Shown one piece after another: positions 3,807 through 56,941 of a DNA stretch of 64,000 bases (position 1 is its first letter; each line of letters opens with the position of its first letter). The DNA lies in NCBI GenBank assembly GCA_016213525.1, contig JACRAE010000001.1:11268-75267 (forward strand), in the 5' to 3' direction. The notes below the pieces were generated by a model. It was not told the origin of the DNA. It searched no databases and was given only the letters and a program-made list of their open reading frames with translations. The position numbers and the translations under genes were made by a program. This DNA comes from Candidatus Aenigmatarchaeota archaeon (GTDB lineage Archaea; Aenigmatarchaeota; Aenigmatarchaeia; CG10238-14; SCSR01).

Positions 3807-5207
3807 TCAGCGTACCTTCTTCACTTCTATGAGCTGGCTCTCCTTGTGTCCCTTGAAGACGTCGGATATCACGACGACGAGGTCCTCGTTCTTCACGAAC
3901 CCGTCCGACTTCAGCGTCTCGATTGCGTTGTTGATGTTCTCCCTCGAGTGGTCCGAGAGGTCCGCCCTGTAGGAGTACACTCCCCTCGAGAGCTGGTTGA
4001 AGTGGTGCACCTGGTCGTACCTGGTGAACGCGAACACCGGGGTCGTCGGCCTGTACTTCGAGGTCAGGCGGGCTAGCCTCCCGGTGCTCGTGAAAACGAT
4101 TATGGCCTTCGCGCCGAGGTTCCTCGCCAGCATCGACGCGGCGAGCGTTATCTCCTCCCTTATGCTCCTCTTCTCCTCGCCCCTCAGAGGCATGACGAAC
4201 TTCTCTTCCCTCTCCATCCTGTTGCATATCTTGGTCATGGCCTCCACGCAGCGCACCGGGTACTTCCCCACGCTCGTCTCGGCGGAGAGCATTATCATGT
4301 CCGTCTTCTGGTAGACGGCCGTCGCCACGTCGGAGACCTCCGCCCTCGTGGGCACCGGGCTCTCGATCATCGACTCCATCATCTGGGTCGCGACTATGAC
4401 GGGCTTGCCCTTCTCCCTGCACCTGTTGATTATGTCCCTCTGCAGCAGCGGCACGTCCTCCAGCGGGACTTCGGCGCCGAGGTCGCCCCTCGCGACCATT
4501 ATGCCGTCCGACGCCTCGAGTATCTCGTCCAGGTTCTTCGCGCCGACCGCGTCCTCTATCTTCGCTATCAGGAACACGTAGGTCTTCAGCCTGTCTGCGA
4601 TCTTCCTGACCTTCTCCACCTCCGCGGCGTGCCTGATGAAGCTGAGGGTGAATATGCGCACGCCGTGCTTGATTGCGAACTCCACGTCCTCCATCTCCTT
4701 CTTCGTTATCCCGCTCAGGTCCATCTGCAGGCCGGGTATGTTCAGCGACTTCTTGCTCTTTATCGTGCCGGACGTGACGACCTTGCACAGGGCCCACTCC
4801 TCGTGGTGCTTCTCGACGAACATCTCGATGTTGCCGTCGTCGATGAAGATCTTCATGCCCTGCTTGAGCGCCTTGAATATGTTGGTGTTCATCTCCGCTC
4901 CCTTGTTTATGGTCCTCCTCACCTTGCCGAACCTGAGCTCGAAGTTCTCCCCGGCGACCACGTCTATCGGGCTCTTCAGCTCCTCTATCCTGAGCTCCGT
5001 GCCCTTCGTGTCCAAAATTACAGGTATCGGGAACAGCAGGCTCTCGTTCGCCTTCTCCACCTCCTTGATGTAGCCCATCATGGTCTTCATGTCGGCGTGG
5101 CTCATGTTGATCCTTGCGGCGTTCATGCCGGCCTTCGAGAGCTCGACTATCTTCTGCGCCGTGCCCGCCGCGGGGCCGAGCGTGCATATTATCTTCGTCT
5201 TTTTCAT
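3807..5207 (-). CDS. pyk: pyruvate kinase
   Basis: 466 aa. It shows the MKKTKIICTLGP...ARINMSHA N-terminus, the MVARGDLG motif and typical length. Confidence 0.95.
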   Translation of the reverse strand: MKKTKIICTLGPAAGTAQKIVELSKAGMNAARINMSHADMKTMMGYIKEVEKANESLLFPIPVILDTKGTELRIEELKSPIDVVAGENFELRFGKVRRTINKGAEMNTNIFKALKQGMKIFIDDGNIEMFVEKHHEEWALCKVVTSGTIKSKKSLNIPGLQMDLSGITKKEMEDVEFAIKHGVRIFTLSFIRHAAEVEKVRKIADRLKTYVFLIAKIEDAVGAKNLDEILEASDGIMVARGDLGAEVPLEDVPLLQRDIINRCREKGKPVIVATQMMESMIESPVPTRAEVSDVATAVYQKTDMIMLSAETSVGKYPVRCVEAMTKICNRMEREEKFVMPLRGEEKRSIREEITLAASMLARNLGAKAIIVFTSTGRLARLTSKYRPTTPVFAFTRYDQVHHFNQLSRGVYSYRADLSDHSRENINNAIETLKSDGFVKNEDLVVVISDVFKGHKESQLIEVKKVR

Positions 5208-25643: not shown

Positions 25644-25760
<117 letters not shown>

Positions 25761-25821: not shown

Positions 25822-25937
25822 TCCCCCGAGCCGGATTTGAACCAGCAACCCTTCGCTTACTGCACGAGCAATTCCTGGCTGACCAATGCCATAGCAAAGA
25901 TCTACAGGCGAATGCTCTACCGTTGAGCTATCGGGGG
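25822..25937 (-). tRNA. tRNA-Tyr (GUA) with an approximately 44-nt intron at the canonical 37/38 position
   Basis: The CCCCCGA/TCGGGGG acceptor gives the C1:G72 archaeal Tyr identity pair. The TTCGC...GCGAA anticodon stem encloses 51 nt beginning CTGTAG. The T-arm is GCTGG-TTCAAAT-CCGGC, and a T-run follows the 3' end. Confidence 0.85.
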
Positions 25938-38791: not shown

Positions 38792-38887
38792 TGCCCCCGC
38801 CAGGATTTGAACCCGGATTTGAAGCTTTTCCCCGGCTTAGGCGGCCGGCCGGAAGCTTCCGTGCTATCCAAGTTACACCACAGGGGC
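38792..38887 (-). tRNA. tRNA-Arg (CCG) with an approximately 22-nt intron at 37/38
   Basis: GCCCCTG/CGGGGGC acceptor. The GAAGC...GCTTC anticodon stem encloses 29 nt beginning TTCCGG. The T-arm is CCGGG-TTCAAAT-CCTGG. The 3' end abuts the rnz stop codon. Confidence 0.8.
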
Positions 38888-47337: not shown

Positions 47338-50300
47338 ATGGTAGCTAAGGTTCTTGTTGAAAGGGAGTCCCTTGACGTGGGGAGGGTCGCGCTCTTCGCG
47401 TCGGGCGCATTCGTCCTGATACTTCTGGTGCTGTATTTTTCGGGCGCTTTCCCGGAGCAGTCCGTCCAGAGCTTCCTGGAGAACGCAATTTCCCTGCCCG
47501 GCTACAGGGAGTTCCTCACGGTGAACCAGTTGCTCTCCTTCGGCGTCTTCCAGCACGGGGGCAACGGCTCAGTGGGGTACTACGGCATAAGCTCGTCGAA
47601 CTTCACCAATCAGAACGTGACGAACGCCACGCTCACCGGATACACCTGTTCCGGGACAAGCTGCAACTTCACGATTTTCCTGGACAACGACAACTCCACA
47701 AAAATATCGAACTACCTGAATTTCTCAGACACCATTCTGAACTATGTCCTATACAACGCCTCGGACGGCTCCCTCAGGAACGTGTCTGAGCTCGGCAAGA
47801 TAGGGCAGGGCAGCTGGAACGTCAGCAGTTCCAACCTGAACTTCACCCTGGCAGGAGGGGACGGCTTCGAATACGGCGTGCGCGACTCCCGACCGGGGGG
47901 CAGCTACTGGCTGGACGAGAACGGCTCGCTCTACGGTATGGTCAACATATCGAACGACTTCATCCGCGTCGGTATGACCGAGAGGAACTTGACGGTCTAC
48001 AACTCGTCAAATAAAATAATCTTCAATGCGAGCTTCGACGACGCGGTGAAGGTCGACGGGCAGAACCTGATCTCGCTCTACGGGGGCGGCGCGCAGAACA
48101 AGACCGTGTATTTCTTCGACTGGGCAAGCCAGACGTGGAAGATATGGCAGAAGGAATCGGAAAGTATAGTTGCAACCGGCGGCAACATAACCTACGCAGA
48201 CGGCTACACGATTCACACGTTCACCTCCAATGGGACGTTCAATGTCACGTCAGGTTCTGGCCCGGTCGAATATCTGGTTGTTGCAGGAGGCGGAGGAGGT
48301 CCCGGAAACTACGGAGGCGGAGGAGGTGCCGGAGGCTATCTGGCAGGAACGAACTACACAGTTACGCCTCAGTCTTATGCAATCACCGTCGGCGCCGGCG
48401 GCGCAGGAGGAATTGGCAACGATCAGGACGGGACGAAGGGGAGCAACTCGACTTTCGGCACGATTATCTCAAACGGCGGGGGAGGAGGAGATTCGGACCA
48501 GATTCTGAGCTCTGACAACAACGGCGGCTCTGGGGGCGGGCATAAGGCTACGACCGTGAGGACAAACGGAACTTCGGGGCAGGGATATGGAGGTGGTCTG
48601 CAGGTCGGCGGAGATCCCAACTATGCAAATGGCGGAGGCGGCGGCGCGGGCGAGCAGGGCAACGACGCTGTTTCCACTTCCGTCGCGGGTGCGGGCGGTG
48701 ATGGGTTGCAGTCGTCGATTTCTGGTGTGGCCACGTACTACGCCGGAGGCGGAGGCGGAGGGACTTGGAGCGGCGGGACCGTCGGCGCTGGTGGCTTGGG
48801 CGGTGGCGGCTCTGCTGGTGCGAGCGGCGGGGGGAACGGTGTGTCTGGAACTGCGAACACGGGCGGCGGTGGCGGTTCAGCTTCTTATGGCGGCGGCTAC
48901 TACAACGGTGGCTCGGGCGGTTCTGGTATCGTAATCATAAGATACAATAACACGCACGGAGTCCCCGACTGGCTCGACCCGAGGAACAAGCAGGAGTTCA
49001 AATGGAGGTACGTGCTAAGCCGCGATGCTTATCCGAATATAAATTTGACTTATCTGGTGACGGCGCACGATCCGTTTGTCAGGACTTTCGTGGACTCTGC
49101 CCAGAAACCGATTCTGGCAACCGATTTTTCAGACAACTCCACCTGGACGAAGAATGCCACCAAGGTGTACTTCACGAACGGGTATGTCCAAATAGACACG
49201 ACGACCGCCGGAACAGCCCCTCCGGACAGGATACATAGGAAGCTGCCATTCGAATTATCTGACAGGAGCTGGAAAGTGGATTTGGATATATGGCTCACGA
49301 GCGGCTCGTCGACTCAGCTCGGCCACGCCCTCGTGCTGTCCGACTCAGATCAGCTTCCATGGGGGTCCAATCAAGATTCCATCATGATATCCGGTCAGGG
49401 GGTCAACAGCTATCCAAAATGTCAGATATTTGTGGGATACAAGGACGGTGCGAGTGCTGGTGTACAATCAAGTGCCTTTTACAACCCTGGTACCGGACAA
49501 GGCTGTCAACAGTGGCATTACGTGACCGTCGAGAGGAACAGCCCGACGCGCATCACCCTCAGCGTATATTCCAACCCAGAAAGAACCAATTTAATTTACA
49601 TGGGATCTGACACCATACCGGCAACAATAGATGGACTGTCTTACGTCCAAGTGGTTCATGACGACGTTTACACAAACGAGGCCGGGCGTACGCAGACCAC
49701 CAGGGTGGACAACGTGACTCTATGGGACAGCTTCAACGGCAACAATGTCTCAATATCGTTCTCCCTCCCCGAGAACCGCACGTCCGTCACCACGGCCGAG
49801 CCCGGCCTGGTCGGGTACTGGAACCTCAACGAGGGATTTGGTCTAAACACAAGCGACACGAGCGGTTCTGGGAATACTTTCCTCTTAGGCAACGGGACCT
49901 CTGATTCGAGACCTGTCTGGGTGTCAAACTCGTCGTGTAGATTCGGTAACTGCCTAAGCTTTGACGGCGGTGATCAGGTAATGAAGAACAATCCGTCATT
50001 CCTTTCAGATCAGCAAGGCAGCGTCTCAATGTGGTTCAAATATTATGGGACAGGCGACACAGAGTCCTTGTTCGACGTCACAGACGGAGCGGCTAGCAAC
50101 GTTGATAGCTGGATAGTCTATCAGAGTACGGGGAACATACTACATCCAGCTCTGATTTACAATGACGGATCGGTAATACTGAACTCCCAGATAGGGAGCG
50201 CCATAACCGACACTAACTGGCACCATCTTGTGACAACTTCTGACGGGTCAACGATAAGGGCGTATCTTGACGGCACGGAGAGGTCGCTAACAATAGCCCA

Positions 50301-53300
50301 AGGCAGCAATACCGGACAGTGGTTCGGAGACCTTTCTTTGAACAGGGTAACAGTGGGTGCGCTTCAGTTCGATGTCACTGCCGGCTTCGATGGTCTCGTT
50401 GACGATGTTCGGGTCTATTCCAGACCACTCGGACTGAGCGAAGTCAATCAGCTCTACCTCACCGGCATCAACCAGCAGAAGCCGGGAATCTACTTCACCA
50501 AGAACAACGCGACAGACAACGAGGAGGTCCTGTTCGCAACGACGAACTTCAAGAACATCAACCACACGAGCTTCCAGATATTCTCCAACCAGACGAACTT
50601 CTTCGGCTTCAACTACACGTTCAACTCCACCATGAACCAGAACTTCATGTTCGCCCTCGGTACCATGGGCAGGATGAACACGACGGCCTTCAACCCGCAG
50701 AACAACGCGACACAGTTCTCGAACGAGCTGGTGGAGTCCGTGGCGAACAGCACGCTGACGTGGTATGACATCTTGAAGGGAACGGATTTCGAGGACGACT
50801 TCTCCAGATACTCGACCCAGGCCAGTGCGGACGCCGCGTGGGTCCCGACCGCCGACTACATGAACGTGAGCGTAACCAACGACAACTTGCAGTTCTTCGC
50901 CCAAAACGGGGCGGACAGGAAGATCTACTACGACTTCGGCAACAACATCTCGGACAGCTCGTGGGTTCTGAGGTTCAAAATGCGCTTCAGCAACATCAAC
51001 GCGGCTGCAGTGAACATATTTTTCCTCGGGATTTCCAGTACGACGGGCGCCGCGAACACGAATCAGAATTTCATACAAATAGGACCGTATTCTTCCGACT
51101 CCCTGCCTCACAACATCCTCGCCGGCGCGAACGTGAGGCAAGACCAGTCAACGTACGAGAGCCGACATTCGGACACGTACGTCGCTAACAAAGATTATTA
51201 CGTGGAACTCAGAAGGATTAGTCCCACTCTCGTGGACGCGGTTTGGTACAACGACGACGGGTACACGTCGGTTGCCCTGAAGAGGATAAACCTGACCAAC
51301 AGCGGCATGTCGAGCATAACCGGCCTCAGGTACCTGAAGCTCAATACTTATGTCACCCAAACTGGGAGCCACAGCGGGACGATAGACGACGTGCAGTTCT
51401 GGAACGGCGTGAGCTACGCCACTGGTCCGTCGACCAACGTGACCTTCAAGGGATTAGATGCATCGCAGCACAACTTCAACCAGAAGTTCAACTACGACGG
51501 CGGTGCTGTGGGAATATGGAGGTTGGACGAGGGCTCCGGGCTGAACGCGACGGACATAAGCGGGAACGGGAACACGGTGCCGATAAACGGCGCGACGTGG
51601 ATGAGCAACTCCTCATGCAGGTACGGCTCGTGCCTGAGCTTCGACGGGACCGACGACCACATACCGGTGCGCAGCGACGGGACCGGCTTCGACAGCGTCG
51701 CCTTCTGGGAGAACAAAGACTGGACCATATCAGCGTGGGTGAACAGGAAAGGCACGCCGTCCCCGCAATATTCTATAATATCCTGGGCCGACACATCCGG
51801 ATCCAACGACGGTTGGGGCCTGGAGCTGACAAGCGGTGGTCTCGTCGAATTCGGGGACTACGCCATGTCAACATATATCTACAGCACGTCGGCACTTAGT
51901 GTTGATACGTGGTACCATGTCGTTGTCAGGAAATCTGGAACTACCATAAAAATGTTTGTGAACGGCGTTGAGCAAGGATCCAAATCGCATACATCAACAT
52001 TCACTCAAGGCAGCCAGGAATTCGTAATCGGCGCAAGGAAGGAGCCCGGTTTTGACCGTTTCTGCAAATGTGTCCTCGATGATATAAGGATTTATCAGCG
52101 CGCCATGTCCGACACAGATATCCGTGACCACTACAATCACGAGGTCACGAGGTACTACGACGACTTCGGCACCGCCATCTCAGGAAAAACTTACAAATAT
52201 TTCGGCGTGGAAGACTCGAACACGACGCTGCAGCCGATTACGCCCGCGGGAACGGTGCTTCACTACAGGTTCAACGATAACTCGACCATCAAATTAACGG
52301 ACAGCTCGGGATATGGAAACAACGGATCTACGGTGAGCGGACCTGTATGGGCGGTCAATGGGTCATGTAAATTCGGCGGTTGCATGTACTTCAGCGGCGG
52401 GAGCGACTACATAGACCTGGGAAAGCCGGCTTCTCTCAGCTTACCAGATGCCATGACGTTTGCGGCATGGGTCTATCCGATTGGTACTGGCCAGCACATA
52501 GCCGGCAACTTCGACTCGGCTGGATTTAAGGCACAATGGAACATTCTCTTTTCTGACATATCCTCTGGTAGGTCCCTCATGCGTTTCCAGTCTTGTGGAG
52601 ACTCTGGATCGTGCGCTAATTATCTGAATCTAATAGGAACTTCCGCATATGCGACCTCGAACCAATGGAATCACGTTGCCGTAGTTAGGGACTCGGCTGA
52701 CGGCCAAGTGAGGCTCTACGTAAACGGAATTCAAGACGCGAATACAGCCACATCTTCTTCCAACAAAATAGCTAGCTATTCGAATGTAGGTACGAACGCT
52801 CTAGGGTCGGCCGGCACTTACTCGTCGTTTAAGTTCAGCGGATACATGGACGATGTTATTCTAGTGAACCGGTCGATTTCGACGGAAGAGATTAACAAAT
52901 TATATCTCGGTGGCTACCAGAGGCACGGCGGAGACCTCATTGGATGGTGGAAGTTCAACGAGAACACGACATCGGGCCCGACTTTGGACGGCGGTGGAAA
53001 TGGGAACACCGGAAACACCAGCGGAACGACCTGGATGAACAACGCGTCGTGTAAGATAAACGGGTGCCTGAGCTTCGACGGCGTGAACGATTACGTTAAC
53101 TTCTCGACCAATCCCGTGAAAGACAACCAGGACTACTCATTCTCAACCTGGTTCAAGGTCAATTCCCTCCCTTCTCTGAACGGCATACTGGTAAACACGT
53201 TCAGCTCCGACGTACATCAAGAAGACTTCCAAGTTAGGGTCGAGTCTGACGGTACCCTGACTTTCTGGAAACGCACCGACGGTTCAACTATAGACGCCGA

Positions 53301-54477
53301 CGCCGTGCAATGCGTGGGTTGTATACAGACCGGCGTGTGGTATAATTTAGTGGGGATTTACGATGACGCCTTGGCAAACGACCAGTCCAACCTTCCCGTG
53401 GGCTCGATGAAGCTGTATCTGAATGGCAACCTGACGGTTCAGACCCCGGTAGATACCCAGTATAATTTCGCCAGTCAGGGAAGAGGGGAGATGCAAATCG
53501 GAATCGACGACAGCTCGAACAGTTGGTACTTCAATGGAATCATTGACAATTTGAAGTTTTGGAAGCGCACGCTGACGGCGGACGAGGCTATGAACGAGTA
53601 CCTCGCAAACCAGGACCAACATTCAATTTACGGCAACATACACAGAATCGCCAGCGCGGAAGGGTTGCAGTCCGTGAGCTTCAACCTGACGGACCATGAC
53701 AGCCCGTATCAGAAGGACTATGATCAGAGATCCCTCCTGCTGGGCGTCAGCCAGATCGATACGACCGCTCCCGTCACGACGGTGCAGAGCCCGAGCAACA
53801 CTACCTATTCCGAGAGCTGGGTATGGGCGAACGTCACGGTCAGCGAGGACGTGCCGGCCGTCTACAGGAGCCTCGACTCGGGCGCGAACGTGAGCATGAC
53901 TAACAGCTCCGGGAACTGGAACGGCAACGTGTCGGGAATCTCCGACGGCGCGCACACCCTGATCTTCTACGCGACCGACGCCTCCGGCAACATAGCGGCG
54001 CCCGTGGGCGCGGGCTTCACGGTGAGCGCGACGGTCTCCATAAACATACTCAACATAAACAAGACTTTCAGCCCCCTCGTTCCCTGGTGGGTGGAGTACG
54101 TCAACATATCCGGCTACGCGGCCTACACAAACGGCACGCCTTTCGGCTCCGGGTCAATCAGGATGAACGAGACGAACGGCGGCCGCGAGACGACCCTGTG
54201 CTCGGTCAGCCCCAGCCCGTCGGGCTCCTTCTACTGCAACTTCACGTCGAAGTACCAGGTGGGCGACACCCCGATAGGGATATACGCCATCAGCGGCGGC
54301 ACCATAATCGGGAACGTGACCGGGGTGATGGAGACGAAGCCTAACTACGGCGAGAGGCCCGCGGGCCTGACGTCCAGGTCCGTCCTCGAGACGCCGTTCC
54401 CGATACAGGAGCCGTCCAGCATCATCAGGACGATAGTCGCGCGCCTCACCATATCCCGCGGTCCCGCCGGCAGCTAG
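47338..54477 (+). CDS. giant (2379 aa) membrane-anchored, sequon-rich surface protein: glycine-rich domain plus at least four LamG/ConA-like lectin-fold domains plus Ig-like C-terminal modules
   Basis: Single uninterrupted ORF with an N-terminal TM span (VALFASGAFVLILLVLYF). The Gly-rich domain is encoded at about 48180-48945 (YTIHTFTSNGTFNVTSG..VEYLVVAGGGGG ... GSGGSGIVIIRY). Four LamG-type units lie at about 49800-50460, 51500-52140, 52255-52915 and 52935-53610. Each has W.(L/F)(N/D)E...SC(R/K).G.C.(S/Y)FDG... and ends with DD(V/I)R(V/I)Y-type strands. Confidence 0.9.
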   Translation: MVAKVLVERESLDVGRVALFASGAFVLILLVLYFSGAFPEQSVQSFLENAISLPGYREFLTVNQLLSFGVFQHGGNGSVGYYGISSSNFTNQNVTNATLTGYTCSGTSCNFTIFLDNDNSTKISNYLNFSDTILNYVLYNASDGSLRNVSELGKIGQGSWNVSSSNLNFTLAGGDGFEYGVRDSRPGGSYWLDENGSLYGMVNISNDFIRVGMTERNLTVYNSSNKIIFNASFDDAVKVDGQNLISLYGGGAQNKTVYFFDWASQTWKIWQKESESIVATGGNITYADGYTIHTFTSNGTFNVTSGSGPVEYLVVAGGGGGPGNYGGGGGAGGYLAGTNYTVTPQSYAITVGAGGAGGIGNDQDGTKGSNSTFGTIISNGGGGGDSDQILSSDNNGGSGGGHKATTVRTNGTSGQGYGGGLQVGGDPNYANGGGGGAGEQGNDAVSTSVAGAGGDGLQSSISGVATYYAGGGGGGTWSGGTVGAGGLGGGGSAGASGGGNGVSGTANTGGGGGSASYGGGYYNGGSGGSGIVIIRYNNTHGVPDWLDPRNKQEFKWRYVLSRDAYPNINLTYLVTAHDPFVRTFVDSAQKPILATDFSDNSTWTKNATKVYFTNGYVQIDTTTAGTAPPDRIHRKLPFELSDRSWKVDLDIWLTSGSSTQLGHALVLSDSDQLPWGSNQDSIMISGQGVNSYPKCQIFVGYKDGASAGVQSSAFYNPGTGQGCQQWHYVTVERNSPTRITLSVYSNPERTNLIYMGSDTIPATIDGLSYVQVVHDDVYTNEAGRTQTTRVDNVTLWDSFNGNNVSISFSLPENRTSVTTAEPGLVGYWNLNEGFGLNTSDTSGSGNTFLLGNGTSDSRPVWVSNSSCRFGNCLSFDGGDQVMKNNPSFLSDQQGSVSMWFKYYGTGDTESLFDVTDGAASNVDSWIVYQSTGNILHPALIYNDGSVILNSQIGSAITDTNWHHLVTTSDGSTIRAYLDGTERSLTIAQGSNTGQWFGDLSLNRVTVGALQFDVTAGFDGLVDDVRVYSRPLGLSEVNQLYLTGINQQKPGIYFTKNNATDNEEVLFATTNFKNINHTSFQIFSNQTNFFGFNYTFNSTMNQNFMFALGTMGRMNTTAFNPQNNATQFSNELVESVANSTLTWYDILKGTDFEDDFSRYSTQASADAAWVPTADYMNVSVTNDNLQFFAQNGADRKIYYDFGNNISDSSWVLRFKMRFSNINAAAVNIFFLGISSTTGAANTNQNFIQIGPYSSDSLPHNILAGANVRQDQSTYESRHSDTYVANKDYYVELRRISPTLVDAVWYNDDGYTSVALKRINLTNSGMSSITGLRYLKLNTYVTQTGSHSGTIDDVQFWNGVSYATGPSTNVTFKGLDASQHNFNQKFNYDGGAVGIWRLDEGSGLNATDISGNGNTVPINGATWMSNSSCRYGSCLSFDGTDDHIPVRSDGTGFDSVAFWENKDWTISAWVNRKGTPSPQYSIISWADTSGSNDGWGLELTSGGLVEFGDYAMSTYIYSTSALSVDTWYHVVVRKSGTTIKMFVNGVEQGSKSHTSTFTQGSQEFVIGARKEPGFDRFCKCVLDDIRIYQRAMSDTDIRDHYNHEVTRYYDDFGTAISGKTYKYFGVEDSNTTLQPITPAGTVLHYRFNDNSTIKLTDSSGYGNNGSTVSGPVWAVNGSCKFGGCMYFSGGSDYIDLGKPASLSLPDAMTFAAWVYPIGTGQHIAGNFDSAGFKAQWNILFSDISSGRSLMRFQSCGDSGSCANYLNLIGTSAYATSNQWNHVAVVRDSADGQVRLYVNGIQDANTATSSSNKIASYSNVGTNALGSAGTYSSFKFSGYMDDVILVNRSISTEEINKLYLGGYQRHGGDLIGWWKFNENTTSGPTLDGGGNGNTGNTSGTTWMNNASCKINGCLSFDGVNDYVNFSTNPVKDNQDYSFSTWFKVNSLPSLNGILVNTFSSDVHQEDFQVRVESDGTLTFWKRTDGSTIDADAVQCVGCIQTGVWYNLVGIYDDALANDQSNLPVGSMKLYLNGNLTVQTPVDTQYNFASQGRGEMQIGIDDSSNSWYFNGIIDNLKFWKRTLTADEAMNEYLANQDQHSIYGNIHRIASAEGLQSVSFNLTDHDSPYQKDYDQRSLLLGVSQIDTTAPVTTVQSPSNTTYSESWVWANVTVSEDVPAVYRSLDSGANVSMTNSSGNWNGNVSGISDGAHTLIFYATDASGNIAAPVGAGFTVSATVSINILNINKTFSPLVPWWVEYVNISGYAAYTNGTPFGSGSIRMNETNGGRETTLCSVSPSPSGSFYCNFTSKYQVGDTPIGIYAISGGTIIGNVTGVMETKPNYGERPAGLTSRSVLETPFPIQEPSSIIRTIVARLTISRGPAGS

Positions 54478-54531: not shown

Positions 54532-55512
54532 ATGAAGAAGGAGATTTTCGCAGCGTTCGCGGCAGCCGCTTTTCTATTTTTGGCCTCCGGCCTGTCATAT
54601 GCCGACACCACTCTCGGGTCCGGCAACACGAGCTTCACGGTGAAGCCCATAATTTTGTCCGAGATACCGTTCGACGTGGACCAGAACCAGTACTGCGGGA
54701 ACCCGGACAGGCCGCAGACGCAGAACTTCAATTTGGCCCTGGTCGGCGACCCGAATTTCCTCAACATCAGGTGGAACGCGAAGGACCCCGGAGGGATAGA
54801 GAGGCAGATAGGCGTGAACTGCTGGCTCAACTGCGCGGCCGACCCCAATCAGCTGCTGTCGGACGTGAACCTATGCGCCGGCTACCAGAACTGCAGCTAC
54901 GTGGGCCCGACCGGGGACCACTCGTGCTCCATACAGATACCGAAGTACAACTTCAACGCGGGGAACAACGCCACTTGCAGGTTCTACGACACGGTGCTGC
55001 CTTCTCAGGGACTGGTTGTGGAGAACAGGTCGTTCTACACCGTTGACTACAAGGTCTTCACCCCGTCCGTCTCTCTGACCGTTGGGGCGGACGCCACGCT
55101 CCCGGTGGACGTCAAGTCGTTCGGCATACTCCCCGGCTACTACACGAACAACCTGACCGCGCTGCAGAACTCCCAGCTAGTCTTCATCAACGGCCCGTTC
55201 GCGAACACGGCGAACGTCAGGTGCGGCGAGAACGGCAGGACGTTCCCGACAATAAAATTCCTTTCCTCGGGCGAGATACCGTTCCTCATCTTGTCGAGGA
55301 GCTCCGTCGACACCACGGCGTGCATGGTCGACAGCGAGTGCGGCTATCTTTCTGACGGCTCGGCGCCTGGGAGGTGCGTGTCGAACGTGTGCTGGAAGAG
55401 CTACGACCTGAGCATACAAGCCGGGGTCGCGAGCCTTCCGGAGTACGGCATCATGGGCTTCGCCGCCATAATTTTATTGGCCTCGTTCCTCTTCATCAGG
55501 AAGGGAATCTAA
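54532..55512 (+). CDS. Cys-rich secreted protein with C-terminal membrane anchor
   Basis: 326 aa. It has a signal peptide (MKKEIFAAFAAAAFLFLASGLSYA) and a C-terminal TM span plus basic tail (IMGFAAIILLASFLFIRKG). AGGAG lies 8 nt upstream, and the gene starts 54 nt after the giant gene. Confidence 0.75.
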   Translation: MKKEIFAAFAAAAFLFLASGLSYADTTLGSGNTSFTVKPIILSEIPFDVDQNQYCGNPDRPQTQNFNLALVGDPNFLNIRWNAKDPGGIERQIGVNCWLNCAADPNQLLSDVNLCAGYQNCSYVGPTGDHSCSIQIPKYNFNAGNNATCRFYDTVLPSQGLVVENRSFYTVDYKVFTPSVSLTVGADATLPVDVKSFGILPGYYTNNLTALQNSQLVFINGPFANTANVRCGENGRTFPTIKFLSSGEIPFLILSRSSVDTTACMVDSECGYLSDGSAPGRCVSNVCWKSYDLSIQAGVASLPEYGIMGFAAIILLASFLFIRKGI

Positions 55513-55554: not shown

Positions 55555-55626
55555 GGGCTCATCGTCTAGTGGCTAGGACGCGACTCTTACAAAGTCGAGG
55601 CAGGAGTTCGATTCTCCTTGGGCCCA
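55555..55626 (+). tRNA. tRNA-Val (UAC)
   Basis: GGGCTCA/TGGGCCC acceptor, CGACT-CTTACAA-AGTCG anticodon arm, AGGAG-TTCGATT-CTCCT T-arm. Confidence 0.85.
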
Positions 55627-55684
55627 CTGAACCGGAAGCCTGCTCCTCACAAAGGCGTGTCAATCAGGAAAAACAAGTAAAAAT

Positions 55685-56497
55685 ATGAACAACGTAAGGA
55701 TTCCAGAAAGGATAGATCAGGAAGTAGCTTACCTTTGCGGCATGATTTGTGGAGACGGTCATTTGTGCGTTAGACCAAAGAAACATGAGTACTCCATATA
55801 CGTAACTGGGAATTTGAATAATGAGAGGGAGTTCTACGAAGACATTCTGAGTCCGATTTTTGCAAGAGTCTTTGGGATAGAACCTAAGGTGAAGATAAGT
55901 ACGCGGGATAACACTGTGAATTTGATTATCTATTCTAAATCTATTGTAAATTTCTTTTCAGAAAGATGCGGTGTACCAATAGGGAAAAAGGAACATAAGG
56001 TTAGGATACCAGATGTTTTCAGAGACACTGATTTAGTCAGAAGTTTCTTACAGGGCTTCGCTGACGCAGACCTGGGGCTGTGCCTGAAAAGAAGATACAG
56101 GGAAGTCCCTTATTATCCGGTAATAGGTGGCTCGTCGAAGAGTAAGCAGATTATTTTGGATGTATCAGAAGTCCTCATGGGGCTTGGAATAACATTCTCC
56201 TTGAGTTTGGACAGAACCAGTTACGATAATAGAATCAGAAAGGAAACAACGAGAAACATGATTAACATTTACGGGAGGAAGAATGTTTTCCTATGGATGA
56301 AGTTCATAGGTTATAGAAATCCAAAATATCTGAAGATTTTCGAGAAAACAAAAAATATAGCGGGGGTCAGATTTGAACTGACGACCTTTACCCCGCGCCT
56401 AGAGGCGCGTCCGGGTGTCCCAGAGACAACCTATGAGCCCGACGAGCAAACTGTGGCCATTGGGCCACTCCAGGCTGCTCTACCCCGCTATAGATAG
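55685..56497 (+). CDS. free-standing double-motif LAGLIDADG homing-endonuclease-like protein; the 3' end runs antisense through tRNA-iMet
   Basis: 270-aa ORF. Motif 1 is AYLCGMICGDGHL and motif 2 is FLQGFADADLGL, about 105 aa apart. The body (55685 to about 56350) is visibly AT-rich. The last 45 or so codons are the antisense of the tRNA gene. Confidence 0.75.
   Translation: MNNVRIPERIDQEVAYLCGMICGDGHLCVRPKKHEYSIYVTGNLNNEREFYEDILSPIFARVFGIEPKVKISTRDNTVNLIIYSKSIVNFFSERCGVPIGKKEHKVRIPDVFRDTDLVRSFLQGFADADLGLCLKRRYREVPYYPVIGGSSKSKQIILDVSEVLMGLGITFSLSLDRTSYDNRIRKETTRNMINIYGRKNVFLWMKFIGYRNPKYLKIFEKTKNIAGVRFELTTFTPRLEARPGVPETTYEPDEQTVAIGPLQAALPRYR
56358..56489 (-). tRNA. initiator tRNA-Met (CAU) with three putative introns (D-loop, 37/38, anticodon-stem/variable-loop junction)
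   Basis: The minus strand reads AGCGGGG-TA-GAGC-AGCCTGG[..GTGGCCCAATGGCCAC..]TTT-GCTC-G-TCGGG-CTCATA[GGTTGTCTCTGGGAC]A-CCCGG-[..CGCGCCTCTAGGCGCG..]AGGTC-GTCAG-TTCAAAT-CTGAC-CCCCGCT-A. It has the A1:U72 pair and the GGG/CCC anticodon stem. The total is 132 nt against about 75 nt expected, and a T-run follows. Confidence 0.7.
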
Positions 56498-56530: not shown

Positions 56531-56941
56531 ATGCAAATCCGCAGGGACGTGCAGGCGGTCCTCTACAACCGCTTCGGAAAGGAGACGAGGATACTTTTGG
56601 TGAAGAAGCTCGAGAGCAAGACGTTCAACCCCAGGTGGAGGCTGCTGAAGGGCGGGGTCGAGAAGGGCGAGACGGAGGTGCAGGCCCTACAGAGGGAGAT
56701 AATGGAGGAGGTCGGGCTGAGGGACATCCTGATTGAGAAGAAGATACACGAGTACGAGTTCGACGCCGACGGCACGCTCCATCAGGTCTCGTCGTACGCC
56801 GTGAAGGTCCTGGAGAACGCGCCTCTCAAAGTCCAGCAGGACGAGCTTCTCGACGCCGGCTGGGTCCCGAAGAAGGAGGCCGTGAAGCTTCTGTTCTGGC
56901 CAAGCGAAAAGGAGACGGTGGAGAAGCTCCCGGTGGCGTGA
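56531..56941 (+). CDS. Nudix hydrolase
   Basis: 136 aa with a canonical Nudix box, GGVEKGETEVQALQREIMEEVGL. Confidence 0.9.
   Translation: MQIRRDVQAVLYNRFGKETRILLVKKLESKTFNPRWRLLKGGVEKGETEVQALQREIMEEVGLRDILIEKKIHEYEFDADGTLHQVSSYAVKVLENAPLKVQQDELLDAGWVPKKEAVKLLFWPSEKETVEKLPVA

What the first reader, a model, noticed from the sequence alone, without database searches (positions are those of the whole stretch)
55685..56497. Free-standing AT-rich LAGLIDADG homing-endonuclease ORF between two tRNA genes, reading antisense through the triple-intron tRNA
**Seen in sequence.**
- The 270-aa ORF has two LAGLIDADG-type motifs, LCGMICGDG and LQGFADADLG, about 105 residues apart. That spacing fits the monomeric double-motif architecture.
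- Its body is clearly AT-richer than the flanking DNA.
- It starts 58 nt after tRNA-Val.
- It finds no stop codon until it has crossed the whole tRNA-iMet gene on the opposite strand; the last 45 or so codons are tRNA antisense.

**Established knowledge.** Archaeal LAGLIDADG enzymes are normally encoded inside rRNA introns or inteins. A free-standing copy in a tRNA spacer is unusual.

**Inference.** It could be an active mobile gene homing into a tRNA-flanking site, a decaying remnant, or a domesticated protein. Convergent transcription would produce antisense RNA to an essential tRNA.
Basis: partly seen in the sequence, partly recalled or inferred. Interest (0 to 1): 0.7.

Follow-up and report, generated by a model that had tools for sequence, protein, structure and literature searches.

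The report
Endonuclease gene beside intron-riddled initiator tRNA
An intact DNA-cutting 'homing endonuclease' gene sits tail-to-tail against the initiator tRNA gene of a tiny DPANN archaeon; the same pairing recurs in about twenty other uncultured archaea, where that tRNA gene carries up to five introns, which suggests these enzymes are linked to the unexplained spread of archaeal tRNA introns.

Summary
ORF 55685-56497 (+, 270 aa) is a two-motif LAGLIDADG protein. It is AT-rich in a GC-rich Aenigmatarchaeota genome, starts 57 nt after tRNA-Val, and its last ~45 codons are antisense to a three-intron initiator tRNA gene (56358-56489, -).

It is not a decaying remnant or an assembly error:
- dN/dS is 0.06 against an 88%-identical copy found in three independent assemblies.
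- Both catalytic Asp residues are essentially invariant in 244 relatives.
- Residues 1-226 model confidently as an I-DmoI/I-Tsp061I-type fold. The antisense tail is predicted disordered and is absent from homologues.

In 21 of 22 independently sampled homologous loci (31-65% identity) the ORF abuts an initiator tRNA gene, almost always convergently. The stop codon is often the TAG formed by the tRNA's 3'-terminal CTA. Twenty of those tRNA genes were complete enough to score, and 19 of them carry 1-5 BHB-type introns. A syntenic relative lacks both the ORF and the introns.

More distant subfamilies overlap tRNA-Phe and tRNA-Asn genes or sit in a 23S rRNA insertion. I found no description of this in the literature.

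Best reading (inferred, unproven): a free-standing homing endonuclease whose niche is the initiator-tRNA locus, possibly acting together with the introns.

The parts
55555..55627 (+). tRNA-Val(TAC), intronless; left neighbour of the ORF
   Evidence: ARAGORN; Rfam tRNA 63.8 bits. The same tRNA-Val precedes the locus in L001, L021 and L085.
55628..55684 (+). 57-nt spacer before the ATG; no obvious archaeal TATA box at about -26. The spacer has a 9-nt indel relative to L001.
   Evidence: Read from the sequence. AT-rich relatives have TTTAAA-type boxes 25-30 nt upstream of their ATG; the window does not. Inference: the ORF has a weak promoter of its own or is transcribed by read-through from tRNA-Val.
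55685..56356 (+). Core of the LAGLIDADG endonuclease ORF (residues 1-224), two alpha-beta-beta-alpha-beta-beta-alpha domains
   Evidence: Pfam PF14528. AlphaFold2 pLDDT above 90 over residues 1-226. Foldseek matches the TliVMA intein endonuclease domain, I-Tsp061I and I-DmoI at probability 1.0. dN/dS is 0.06. All homologues align to residues ~3-225 only.
55733..55759 (+). LAGLIDADG motif 1 (LCGMICGDG, residues 17-25); catalytic Asp24
   Evidence: D24 is present in 233 of 233 aligned family members that cover this position.
56048..56077 (+). LAGLIDADG motif 2 (LQGFADADLG, residues 122-131); catalytic Asp129
   Evidence: Position 129 is D in 239 and E in 4 of 244 members; D127 is present in 240 of 244; G124 in 244 of 244.
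56345..56357 (-). Oligo-T tract (T6, T4 on the minus strand) directly after the tRNA-iMet 3' end: the likely tRNA terminator. It is encoded by the Lys/Asn-rich last codons of the endonuclease core (EKTKNI).
   Evidence: Read from the sequence. Equivalent T-runs follow the tRNA in L086, L090, L091 and L111. The terminator function is inferred.
56357..56497 (+). C-terminal extension of the ORF (residues 225-270 plus the TAG stop), antisense to tRNA-iMet
   Evidence: pLDDT is below 50 for residues 233-270. The extension has no counterpart in homologues. It is 99.3% identical to L001 because of constraint on the tRNA. Removing the 23-nt intron in silico would end the ORF inside the tRNA at 237-242 aa.
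56358..56489 (-). Initiator tRNA-Met(CAT) gene, 132 nt, with three introns
   Evidence: Spliced in silico to a 75-nt tRNA-Met(CAT) accepted by ARAGORN; A1:U72 and GGG/CCC anticodon stem present. ARAGORN default and Rfam do not find it.
56449..56467 (-). Intron 1, 19 nt, in the D-loop (after position 20a)
   Evidence: Alignment to intronless iMet. An hBHBh' motif with one G.A mismatch in the 4-bp helix was found by hand on the sequence.
56417..56431 (-). Intron 2, 15 nt, at the canonical 37/38 position
   Evidence: Strict BHB: tcggg CTCA [TA|G] ... TGGG [AC|A] cccgg.
56388..56410 (-). Intron 3, 23 nt, at position 43/44. This is the insertion that keeps the antisense frame open.
   Evidence: HBh' motif with a 6-bp inner helix; frame effect shown.

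Best explanation
The ORF is an intact, functional, I-DmoI-type monomeric LAGLIDADG endonuclease gene. It belongs to a large clade of free-standing archaeal (DPANN) homing-endonuclease genes that I could not find described. The genomic niche of this clade is the flank of a tRNA gene; for this subclade it is the initiator tRNA gene.

**Shown.**
- The gene sits tail-to-tail against tRNA-iMet, so that the antisense tRNA supplies its stop codon.
- The window lineage misses the usual TAG by one base, and a 23-nt tRNA intron then removes the next stop. The protein therefore acquires a disordered ~45-residue tail as a by-product.

**Inferred mechanism.**
- The enzyme cuts alleles that lack the endonuclease gene, in or next to the nearly invariant, presumably single-copy initiator tRNA gene.
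- Recombinational repair from an allele that carries the gene then copies the gene in ('intronless homing').
- The resident allele escapes cutting in one of two ways. Either the insertion itself breaks the target, or the BHB introns that riddle the neighbouring tRNA gene do so, as in phage 'collaborative homing'.
- The convergent overlap with a strongly transcribed tRNA gene probably keeps expression of the endonuclease low.
For: **It is an active-type LAGLIDADG enzyme under selection.**
- Pfam match and a confident two-domain model.
- Structural matches to archaeal intron- and intein-encoded endonucleases.
- Catalytic D24 and D129 are invariant or nearly so in 244 relatives.
- dN/dS is 0.06, while dS is 1.46.

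**It is locus-specific.**
- The loci were sampled by protein similarity alone. In 21 of 22 of them (31-65% identity) the ORF abuts tRNA-iMet.
- The junction is ...TAGCGG(G/A)G in both orientations, and the stop equals the tRNA's terminal CTA in 6 loci.
- By chance, adjacency to one particular gene out of roughly a thousand would be about 0.2%.

**Signs of mobility.**
- There is an empty syntenic site in L021: tRNA-Val, a 74-nt spacer, then an intronless iMet.
- The ORF's GC is below the locus GC in all 20 loci tabulated, across locus GC of 0.31-0.59.
- Fragments of a tRNA 3' end are fused to the ORF end in L089 and L099, and the orientation is flipped in L097 and L099.
- The L102 and L111 ORFs are 63% identical, but the neighbouring RNase HII genes are only 46% identical.

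**Family breadth.**
- More distant subfamilies overlap convergent tRNA-Phe and tRNA-Asn genes and another tRNA.
- One relative lies inside an LSU rRNA gene.
- 38 of 150 family representatives carry an antisense-tRNA signature in their C-terminal tail, against 1 of 150 control segments.

**Link to introns.**
- 19 of 20 scored ORF-adjacent iMet genes have 1-5 introns, mean 2.35. The six other tRNAs in the window have 0-1.
- In a parallel case, EF-2 genes of related MAGs carry BHB mini-introns within ~10 nt of a LAGLIDADG-intein insertion site, and two of them have a free-standing LAGLIDADG gene next door.
Against: - No cleavage, target site or transfer event has been demonstrated.
- L102 carries the ORF beside an intronless iMet, so introns cannot be the universal immunity device.
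- L014 and L016 have three-intron iMet genes with no adjacent ORF.
- L102 and L111 have similar endonucleases but 0 versus 3 introns, so introns are not always co-transferred.
- The arrangement tRNA-Val, ORF, iMet(-) is shared by the window and L085. This is also compatible with long vertical inheritance followed by loss in L021.
- No relatives were found on viral contigs that could serve as vectors.
- Multi-intron tRNAs other than iMet would be missed by the detectors used here, so it is not firmly established that iMet is specifically intron-rich.
Confidence: 0.6

Rival explanations
1. Homing endonuclease at the iMet flank, with unrelated introns. The enzyme targets the junction between the tRNA 3' end and its flank, and its own insertion gives immunity. 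The many iMet introns are an independent trait of these DPANN lineages.
For: - The junction with the acceptor-stem end is precisely conserved.
- L102 has the ORF beside an intronless iMet.
- L014 and L016 have intron-rich iMet genes without an adjacent ORF.
- Other tRNAs in these genomes also carry introns.
Against: - 19 of 20 scored ORF-adjacent iMet genes are interrupted, often 3-5 times. Other detectable tRNAs have 0-1 introns.
- The only empty syntenic site is also the only intronless iMet without an ORF.
- The EF-2 parallel places introns exactly at a LAGLIDADG homing site.
Confidence: 0.2
2. Domesticated LAGLIDADG protein with a host function tied to iMet. Candidate roles are a DNA-binding factor for the tRNA gene or a maturase-like helper for folding and splicing of the multi-intron pre-tRNA. 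The gene would be kept next to its client by vertical inheritance.
For: - Purifying selection is as strong as on host genes.
- The association persists across deep divergence, with partly conserved synteny such as RNase HII or NUDIX neighbours.
- LAGLIDADG maturases exist; bI3 and I-AniI are among the structural hits.
Against: - The catalytic acidic residues are essentially invariant, which is not expected if only binding were required.
- The ORF is present beside an intronless iMet (L102) and absent beside intron-rich iMet genes (L014, L016).
- The gene keeps a foreign, AT-rich composition in every host.
- A syntenic relative manages without it (L021).
- BHB introns are spliced by the EndA protein enzyme and have no known need for a maturase (established knowledge).
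Confidence: 0.13
3. Decaying or neutral remnant of an old insertion, or an artefactual ORF created by an assembly or sequencing error at its 3' end.
For: - The 45-codon tail has no homologue and is predicted disordered.
- One family member (L098) is split by a frameshift.
Against: - dN/dS is 0.06 over 224 codons.
- The motifs are intact.
- Three independent assemblies of a relative show the same architecture.
- The family norm of stopping in or at the tRNA explains the tail.
Confidence: 0.04

Closest known systems
Archaeal intron- and intein-encoded LAGLIDADG endonucleases (I-DmoI, I-Tsp061I, TliVMA intein endonuclease domain)
   Same: - Monomeric two-motif fold, with catalytic Asp at the end of each motif.
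- These are the best structural and sequence matches in the PDB.
- A 28%-identical relative of the window ORF lies inside an LSU rRNA gene.
   Different: - The window ORF is free-standing, not inside an intron or intein.
- It lies outside the tRNA gene and on the opposite strand.
- Sequence identity to solved enzymes is only 17-22%.
Phage T4 SegB and other free-standing 'intronless homing' endonucleases
   Same: - A free-standing endonuclease gene lies between tRNA genes. SegB is inserted between tRNA-Arg and tRNA-Ile and targets the tRNA intergenic region (PMC2988022, Table 1).
- The endonuclease gene is inherited together with flanking markers.
   Different: - SegB is a GIY-YIG enzyme of a bacteriophage.
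- Here the enzyme is LAGLIDADG, the host is a cellular archaeal chromosome, the partner is one specific tRNA (iMet) across many lineages, and the ORF physically overlaps the tRNA in antisense.
Collaborative or trans homing (F-CphI with the psbA intron in cyanophage S-PM2; mobE with the nrdB intron in T-even phages)
   Same: A free-standing endonuclease gene lies next to an intron-containing conserved gene, and the intron interrupts the enzyme's target so that the carrier allele is immune (PMC6083498, PMC2790892, PMC2988022).
   Different: - Those introns are self-splicing group I introns in phage protein genes.
- Here the introns are protein-spliced BHB introns, up to five per 75-nt tRNA.
- Cleavage at intron insertion sites is untested here, and one carrier (L102) has no intron.
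Disrupted archaeal tRNA genes as protection against tRNA-targeting mobile elements (the Randau & Soll idea, as discussed in PMC3293823)
   Same: Multi-intron tRNA genes lie next to a mobile-element-type gene. The idea is that introns destroy a recognition site inside a conserved tRNA gene.
   Different: - That proposal concerns integrases of viruses and plasmids. [quoted passage not shown]
- Here the candidate aggressor is a homing endonuclease, with no integrase or att duplication.

Membership tests
LAGLIDADG homing endonuclease (monomeric, double-motif) | Two LAGLIDADG motifs in one chain, about 100 residues apart | tested here: met
   Residues 17-25 and 122-131; Pfam PF14528 above its cut-off.
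LAGLIDADG homing endonuclease (monomeric, double-motif) | Pseudo-dimeric alpha-beta-beta-alpha-beta-beta-alpha fold | tested here: met
   AlphaFold2 model with pLDDT above 90 for residues 1-226 and the expected order of secondary-structure elements. Foldseek probability 1.0 to I-Tsp061I, I-DmoI and I-AniI. This is a prediction, not a solved structure.
LAGLIDADG homing endonuclease (monomeric, double-motif) | Conserved acidic residue at the C-terminal end of each motif (metal binding) | tested here: met
   D24 and D129 are present. Across relatives, D24 is found in 233 of 233 sequences covering the position, and position 129 is D or E in 243 of 244.
LAGLIDADG homing endonuclease (monomeric, double-motif) | Site-specific double-strand cleavage of a long (14-40 bp) target | not testable with these tools
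   Requires purified protein and substrate DNA.
LAGLIDADG homing endonuclease (monomeric, double-motif) | Mobility: presence/absence polymorphism at a fixed site and spread by gene conversion | tested here: inconclusive
   There is one empty syntenic site (L021), a fixed junction in 21 loci, foreign composition, and one pair where the ORF and host trees disagree. No within-population polymorphism was found, and the window's own NUDIX neighbour is not on record.
Collaborative homing (free-standing endonuclease plus a target-interrupting intron) | Free-standing endonuclease gene adjacent to an intron-containing conserved gene | tested here: met
   19 of 20 scored ORF-adjacent iMet genes carry at least one intron.
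Collaborative homing (free-standing endonuclease plus a target-interrupting intron) | The enzyme cuts the intronless allele at or near the intron insertion site, and the intron-containing allele is resistant | not testable with these tools
   The target site is unknown. L102 (ORF beside an intronless iMet) argues that this cannot hold for every member.
Collaborative homing (free-standing endonuclease plus a target-interrupting intron) | Co-inheritance of endonuclease gene and intron | tested here: inconclusive
   Endonuclease clades partly share intron positions: clade A all have a 37/38 intron, and L101/L107 have only a 53/54 intron. However, L102 and L111 differ (0 versus 3 introns), and L014 and L016 have introns with no adjacent ORF.
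Archaeal BHB (bulge-helix-bulge) tRNA intron | BHB or relaxed BHB motif at both exon-intron boundaries, with excision restoring a canonical tRNA | tested here: met
   Intron 2 is strict, intron 3 is HBh', and intron 1 is hBHBh' with one mismatch (by hand). The spliced product is a 75-nt tRNA-Met(CAT). A complete set of BHB motifs that splices the gene to a canonical tRNA was found for 12 of the 19 intron-containing genes tested; the other 7 failed the strict 4-bp rule.
Archaeal BHB (bulge-helix-bulge) tRNA intron | Splicing observed at the RNA level | not testable with these tools
   No transcript data are available.
Archaeal initiator tRNA | CAT anticodon, A1:U72 pair, three G:C pairs at 29-31:39-41 | tested here: met
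   The mature sequence is AGCGGGG...TCGGGCTCATAACCCGG...CCCCGCTA.

The most novel reading that the evidence does not exclude
LAGLIDADG homing endonucleases are a driving force behind non-canonical BHB introns in archaea. Essential, invariant genes are their targets: the initiator tRNA here and the P-loop codons of EF-2 in related MAGs. Short BHB introns would accumulate at many positions in those genes because each one destroys an endonuclease recognition site, or because they spread by co-conversion with the endonuclease gene. On this reading the free-standing endonuclease gene and the introns form a co-evolving unit, an archaeal counterpart of phage collaborative homing.
Probability: 0.3. 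Interest if true: 0.9.

Novelty: new variant of a known kind. Interest (0 to 1): 0.75.

Why it matters
Why archaeal tRNA genes are interrupted at odd positions, sometimes several times, and how such introns are gained is a long-standing open question. The main hypothesis is protection of conserved tRNA genes from mobile elements. [quoted passage not shown]

This locus and its roughly twenty counterparts provide a concrete, recurrent pairing. A site-specific nuclease gene lies next to the most conserved tRNA gene of the cell, and that gene carries up to five introns. The hypothesis therefore becomes directly testable with one recombinant protein and a few DNA substrates.

There are also practical consequences:
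- Standard tRNA finders miss these initiator tRNA genes. ARAGORN in default mode and Rfam both missed the one in this window.
- Gene callers extend the endonuclease ORFs through the tRNAs, so DPANN annotations will lack an initiator tRNA and carry spurious protein tails.
- The family is also a pool of several hundred uncharacterised LAGLIDADG scaffolds with presumably tRNA-gene specificities.

Tried and rejected
- **Detection of the iMet gene.** ARAGORN in default mode and Rfam (E<=1) both missed it. ARAGORN -i mis-called it tRNA-Pyl or tRNA-Glu with a single 50-nt intron. It was resolved by alignment to intronless iMet genes.
- **First BHB scan.** One search used the wrong geometry, with both bulges at the same end of the central helix, and returned only noise. 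It was redone correctly. The automatic solution for the D-loop intron there is probably spurious and was replaced by a hand-checked motif.
- **Lenient gap model.** The model merged neighbouring introns, so intron counts are taken.
- **Searches that failed or found nothing.**
  - The search for related loci with the 26-sequence alignment failed because no conserved stretch was available. It was repeated with 8 closer sequences.
  - The viral contig scan found no relatives.
  - A look-up of the window's NUDIX protein, meant to find variants lacking the endonuclease gene, returned nothing on record.
- **Hitch-hiking of introns by co-conversion.** There is partial congruence between the endonuclease tree and intron positions. 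However, L102 and L111 (63% identical endonucleases, 0 versus 3 introns, different tRNA stems) argue against it as a general rule.
- **Integrated element with an integrase.** Rejected, because the only gene between tRNA-Val and iMet is the endonuclease ORF.
- **Maturase role.** Considered, and ranked low (see rival explanations).
- **Literature.** Nine full-text searches found no paper linking LAGLIDADG genes to initiator tRNA genes or to DPANN tRNA introns.
Full report
**1. The observation**

The ORF is real: 55685-56497 (+), 270 aa. It carries LCGMICGDG at residues 17-25 and LQGFADADLG at residues 122-131. It matches Pfam LAGLIDADG_3 above the curated cut-off (E=1e-8).

GC falls to 0.37-0.45 inside the ORF, against about 0.60 on both sides. 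GC3 is 0.45, against 0.77-0.89 in five neighbouring genes. tRNA-Val(TAC) ends at 55627, 57 nt before the ATG.

On the minus strand, 56489..56358 is a 132-nt initiator tRNA gene. ARAGORN in default mode and Rfam both miss it. Alignment to intronless initiator tRNAs reveals three insertions:
- 19 nt in the D-loop (56449-56467);
- 15 nt at the canonical 37/38 position (56417-56431);
- 23 nt at 43/44 (56388-56410).

Removing them gives a 75-nt tRNA-Met(CAT) with A1:U72 and the GGG/CCC anticodon stem. The 37/38 intron has a strict bulge-helix-bulge motif. The 43/44 intron has an HBh' motif with a 6-bp inner helix. The D-loop intron fits hBHBh' with one G.A mismatch, checked by hand. ORF codons 225-270 are antisense to this gene.

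**2. The protein**

AlphaFold2, run with a 26-sequence alignment, gives pLDDT above 90 for residues 1-226 with the order of elements expected for two LAGLIDADG domains. Residues 233-270 fall below 50.

Foldseek and sequence searches against the PDB return three main groups:
- the endonuclease domain of the Thermococcus VMA intein;
- the archaeal intron-encoded I-Tsp061I;
- I-DmoI.

An exhaustive HMMER scan finds 1694 cluster representatives at E<=1e-3 and 535 at E<=1e-10. Nearly all are 220-280 aa and align to residues ~3-225 only. The antisense tail is therefore not part of the family.

Across 244 fetched relatives the catalytic residues are essentially invariant. D24 is present in 233 of 233 sequences covering the position. 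Position 129 is D in 239 and E in 4 of 244.

**3. Host and close relatives**

The EF-1alpha gene 1.1 kb downstream is at most 79% identical to its nearest matches, which are mostly Aenigmatarchaeota MAGs. The host is therefore a DPANN archaeon without a close reference genome.

An 88%-identical copy of the ORF (269 aa; TGA one codon earlier) occurs with identical synteny in three independent assemblies. This rules out an assembly artefact.

Between the two lineages, dN/dS of the core is 0.060 (dS 1.46). The flanking host genes give 0.03-0.15 (dS 0.43-0.86). The tail is 99.3% identical because the tRNA is constrained. The gene is under strong purifying selection and is not decaying.

**4. Why the ORF runs through the tRNA**

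In many homologues the stop codon is the TAG formed by the complement of the tRNA's 3'-terminal C-T-A; this is the '+3' class. Others stop at the TGA made by the antisense T-loop or anticodon loop.

The window lineage is one base out of phase with the TAG (AAT ATA GCG). In-silico removal of the 23-nt intron 3 would end the ORF inside the tRNA. With all introns removed the ORF would be 237 aa ending ...TTSGL*, exactly like the homologues P0010 and P0011.

The 45-codon antisense tail is thus a by-product of a phase offset plus a tRNA intron. In addition, the last core codons (EKTKNI, A-rich) form the oligo-T run that follows the tRNA on the other strand. I infer that this run is the tRNA's terminator.

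**5. The main finding: a family tied to the initiator tRNA gene**

Loci were sampled only by similarity to the protein.

- In 21 of 22 independent loci (31-65% identity among the ORFs) the ORF abuts a tRNA-iMet gene.
- It is convergent in 19 loci (the window, L001 and 17 others).
- It is on the same strand in L097 and L099, and L099 retains an antisense fragment of a tRNA 3' end at the ORF stop.
- The one exception, L096, lies 22 nt upstream of tRNA-Ile.
- The junction always reads ...TAGCGG(G/A)G. Because the acceptor stem is an inverted repeat, the same junction arises in both orientations.

Twenty of these iMet genes are complete enough to score. They carry 3, 3, 3, 3, 4, 2, 3, 5, 3, 1, 2, 2, 1, 1, 1, 0, 2, 1, 4 and 3 insertions, mean 2.35. 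The insertions lie in the D-arm, at 29/30, at 37/38, at 41-47, at 53/54 and at 59/60. Nineteen of the 20, including the intronless L102, give a 75-nt product that ARAGORN calls tRNA-Met(CAT); the automatic splice of L099 was not recognised. A complete set of BHB motifs that splices the gene to a canonical tRNA was found for 12 of the 19 intron-containing genes tested.

The six other tRNA genes in the window have 0 or 1 intron.

**6. Empty and discordant sites**

- L021 (EF-1alpha 79% identical) keeps the synteny: p326 homologue, tRNA-Val, 74-nt spacer, tRNA-iMet(-), p126 homologue, EF-1alpha. It has neither the ORF nor any intron.
- L085 keeps p326, tRNA-Val..., ORF, iMet(-) with three introns.
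- L014 and L016 have three-intron iMet genes without an adjacent ORF.
- L102 has the ORF overlapping an intronless iMet.

The ORF-iMet link is therefore near-absolute. The ORF-intron link is strong but not obligatory.

**7. The wider family**

- A 28%-identical relative (P0237) lies inside an archaeal LSU rRNA gene.
- Relatives at about 30% identity were chosen because their C-termini look like translated antisense tRNA. They do overlap convergent tRNA-Phe (L113), tRNA-Asn (L115) and a 125-nt tRNA (L116).
- Of the 150 best representatives, 38 carry such a tail signature, against 1 of 150 control segments. This is a lower bound, because ORFs that stop at the tRNA end leave no signature.
- The few names given by sources are 'hypothetical protein' or 'LAGLIDADG family homing endonuclease [Candidatus Woesearchaeota archaeon]'.

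**8. Evidence bearing on mobility**

- The ORF is more AT-rich than the rest of its locus in all 20 loci tabulated, with locus GC ranging from 0.31 to 0.59.
- Fragments of a tRNA 3' end are fused to the ORF end in L089 and L099.
- L102, L107 and L111 share an upstream RNase HII gene at 43-46% identity, but their endonucleases are 35-63% identical. This hints at transfer between the L102 and L111 lineages.
- No relatives were found on viral contigs.
- One member (L098) is frameshifted.

**9. Mechanism**

Shown:
- The gene is an intact endonuclease-type gene under selection.
- It has a fixed junction with the initiator tRNA gene.
- The tRNA gene is intron-rich.
- One empty site exists.

Inferred: the enzyme cuts alleles lacking the endonuclease gene, in or beside the near-invariant iMet gene, and is copied in by recombinational repair. 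This is 'intronless homing', as for phage T4 SegB, which sits between tRNA genes and targets the tRNA intergenic region (PMC2988022).

Carrier immunity could come from the insertion itself, or from introns that split the target. The latter is the logic of collaborative or trans homing described for F-CphI/psbA and mobE/nrdB (PMC6083498, PMC2790892). I cannot decide between these two. L102 argues against introns as the universal device.

The rivals are a domesticated host factor or maturase, and a neutral remnant. They are weakened by the invariant catalytic residues, the foreign composition, the discordant sites and dN/dS.

**10. A parallel seen in passing**

In related Aenigmatarchaeota MAGs the EF-2 gene is interrupted in its P-loop codons in two ways.
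- Some carry an intein with a LAGLIDADG domain (L024, L027, L038).
- Others carry 30-33-nt BHB mini-introns whose removal restores the reading frame. In L028 the product is identical to the uninterrupted L026 sequence ...IIAHIHHGKTTLTDNL.
- L028 and L037 also have a free-standing HTH+LAGLIDADG gene immediately upstream.

Three different intron positions fall within about 10 nt of the intein insertion site. This is what the idea that introns break the endonuclease target predicts, and it raises my prior for that reading at iMet.

**11. Novelty**

Nine full-text literature searches found nothing that links LAGLIDADG genes to initiator tRNA genes or to DPANN tRNA introns.

Reviews of disrupted tRNA genes do not mention homing endonucleases. 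[quoted passage not shown]

The protein is a new member of a known superfamily. The recurrent architecture is a new variant of known homing systems: a free-standing LAGLIDADG gene fused tail-to-tail to an intron-riddled initiator tRNA gene.

**12. Caveats**

- Everything about cleavage, target, immunity and transfer is inference.
- The sample of 22 loci is modest.
- Intron boundaries are uncertain by 1-2 nt.
- Multi-intron tRNAs other than iMet would escape the detectors used here.
- The library searched does not include most subscription-journal papers.

Noticed in passing
L028 6208-7351; L037 1714-3094; L010 7344-7376; L024 5845-9654; L027 2207-5845; L038 6146-9946 (related Aenigmatarchaeota loci, not the window): The EF-2 (fusA) gene is interrupted in its P-loop codons in two ways. 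Some MAGs carry a LAGLIDADG-containing intein (L024, L027, L038). Others carry 30-33-nt BHB mini-introns whose removal restores ...AH(I/V)HHGKTTLTDNL (L028, L037, L010). L028 and L037 also have a free-standing HTH+LAGLIDADG ORF just upstream. BHB introns in a protein-coding gene at an intein homing site appear to be undescribed.
   Followed up: partly
L014 5831-5962 (+) and L016 4360-4487 (+): These are three-intron initiator tRNA genes with no adjacent LAGLIDADG ORF. ARAGORN mis-calls a 74-nt piece of the L014 gene as an ordinary tRNA-Met.
   Followed up: partly
L089 about 4670-4700 and L099 4703-4722: Fragments of a tRNA T-arm and acceptor 3' end, in antisense, are fused to the end of the endonuclease ORF, next to a complete iMet gene. 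They look like scars of past recombination or insertion events.
   Followed up: no
L098 3944-4764: This family member is split into two overlapping frames (58-aa N-terminal piece and 230-aa remainder). It is either a pseudogene or a sequencing frameshift.
   Followed up: no
window 25822-25937 (-) and 38792-38887 (-): Two further tRNA genes in the window carry one intron each. ARAGORN -i calls them tRNA-Asn with a 44-nt intron and tRNA-Phe with a 22-nt intron, and Rfam confirms both as tRNAs. A 5S rRNA gene lies at 25645-25760 between tRNA-Asp and tRNA-Asn.
   Followed up: partly
window 56531-56941 (+); L101 4190-4675; L085 3098-3562: A small NUDIX hydrolase gene lies next to the endonuclease/iMet pair in three distantly related loci, but at different relative positions. 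It is absent from the empty site L021.
   Followed up: partly
window 47338-54477 (+) and 54532-55512 (+): A 2379-aa ORF is followed by a 326-aa ORF with an N-terminal signal-like segment and a C-terminal hydrophobic anchor. They are probably surface proteins. The 326-aa protein plus tRNA-Val is the conserved left border of the locus in L021, L014, L016 and L085.
   Followed up: no
window 56388-56467 compared with L001: The 57 intron nucleotides of the iMet gene differ at only one position between the two lineages, although synonymous sites of neighbouring genes have dS of 0.4-1.5. This implies either strong constraint on the intron sequences or recent homogenisation of the tRNA locus.
   Followed up: no
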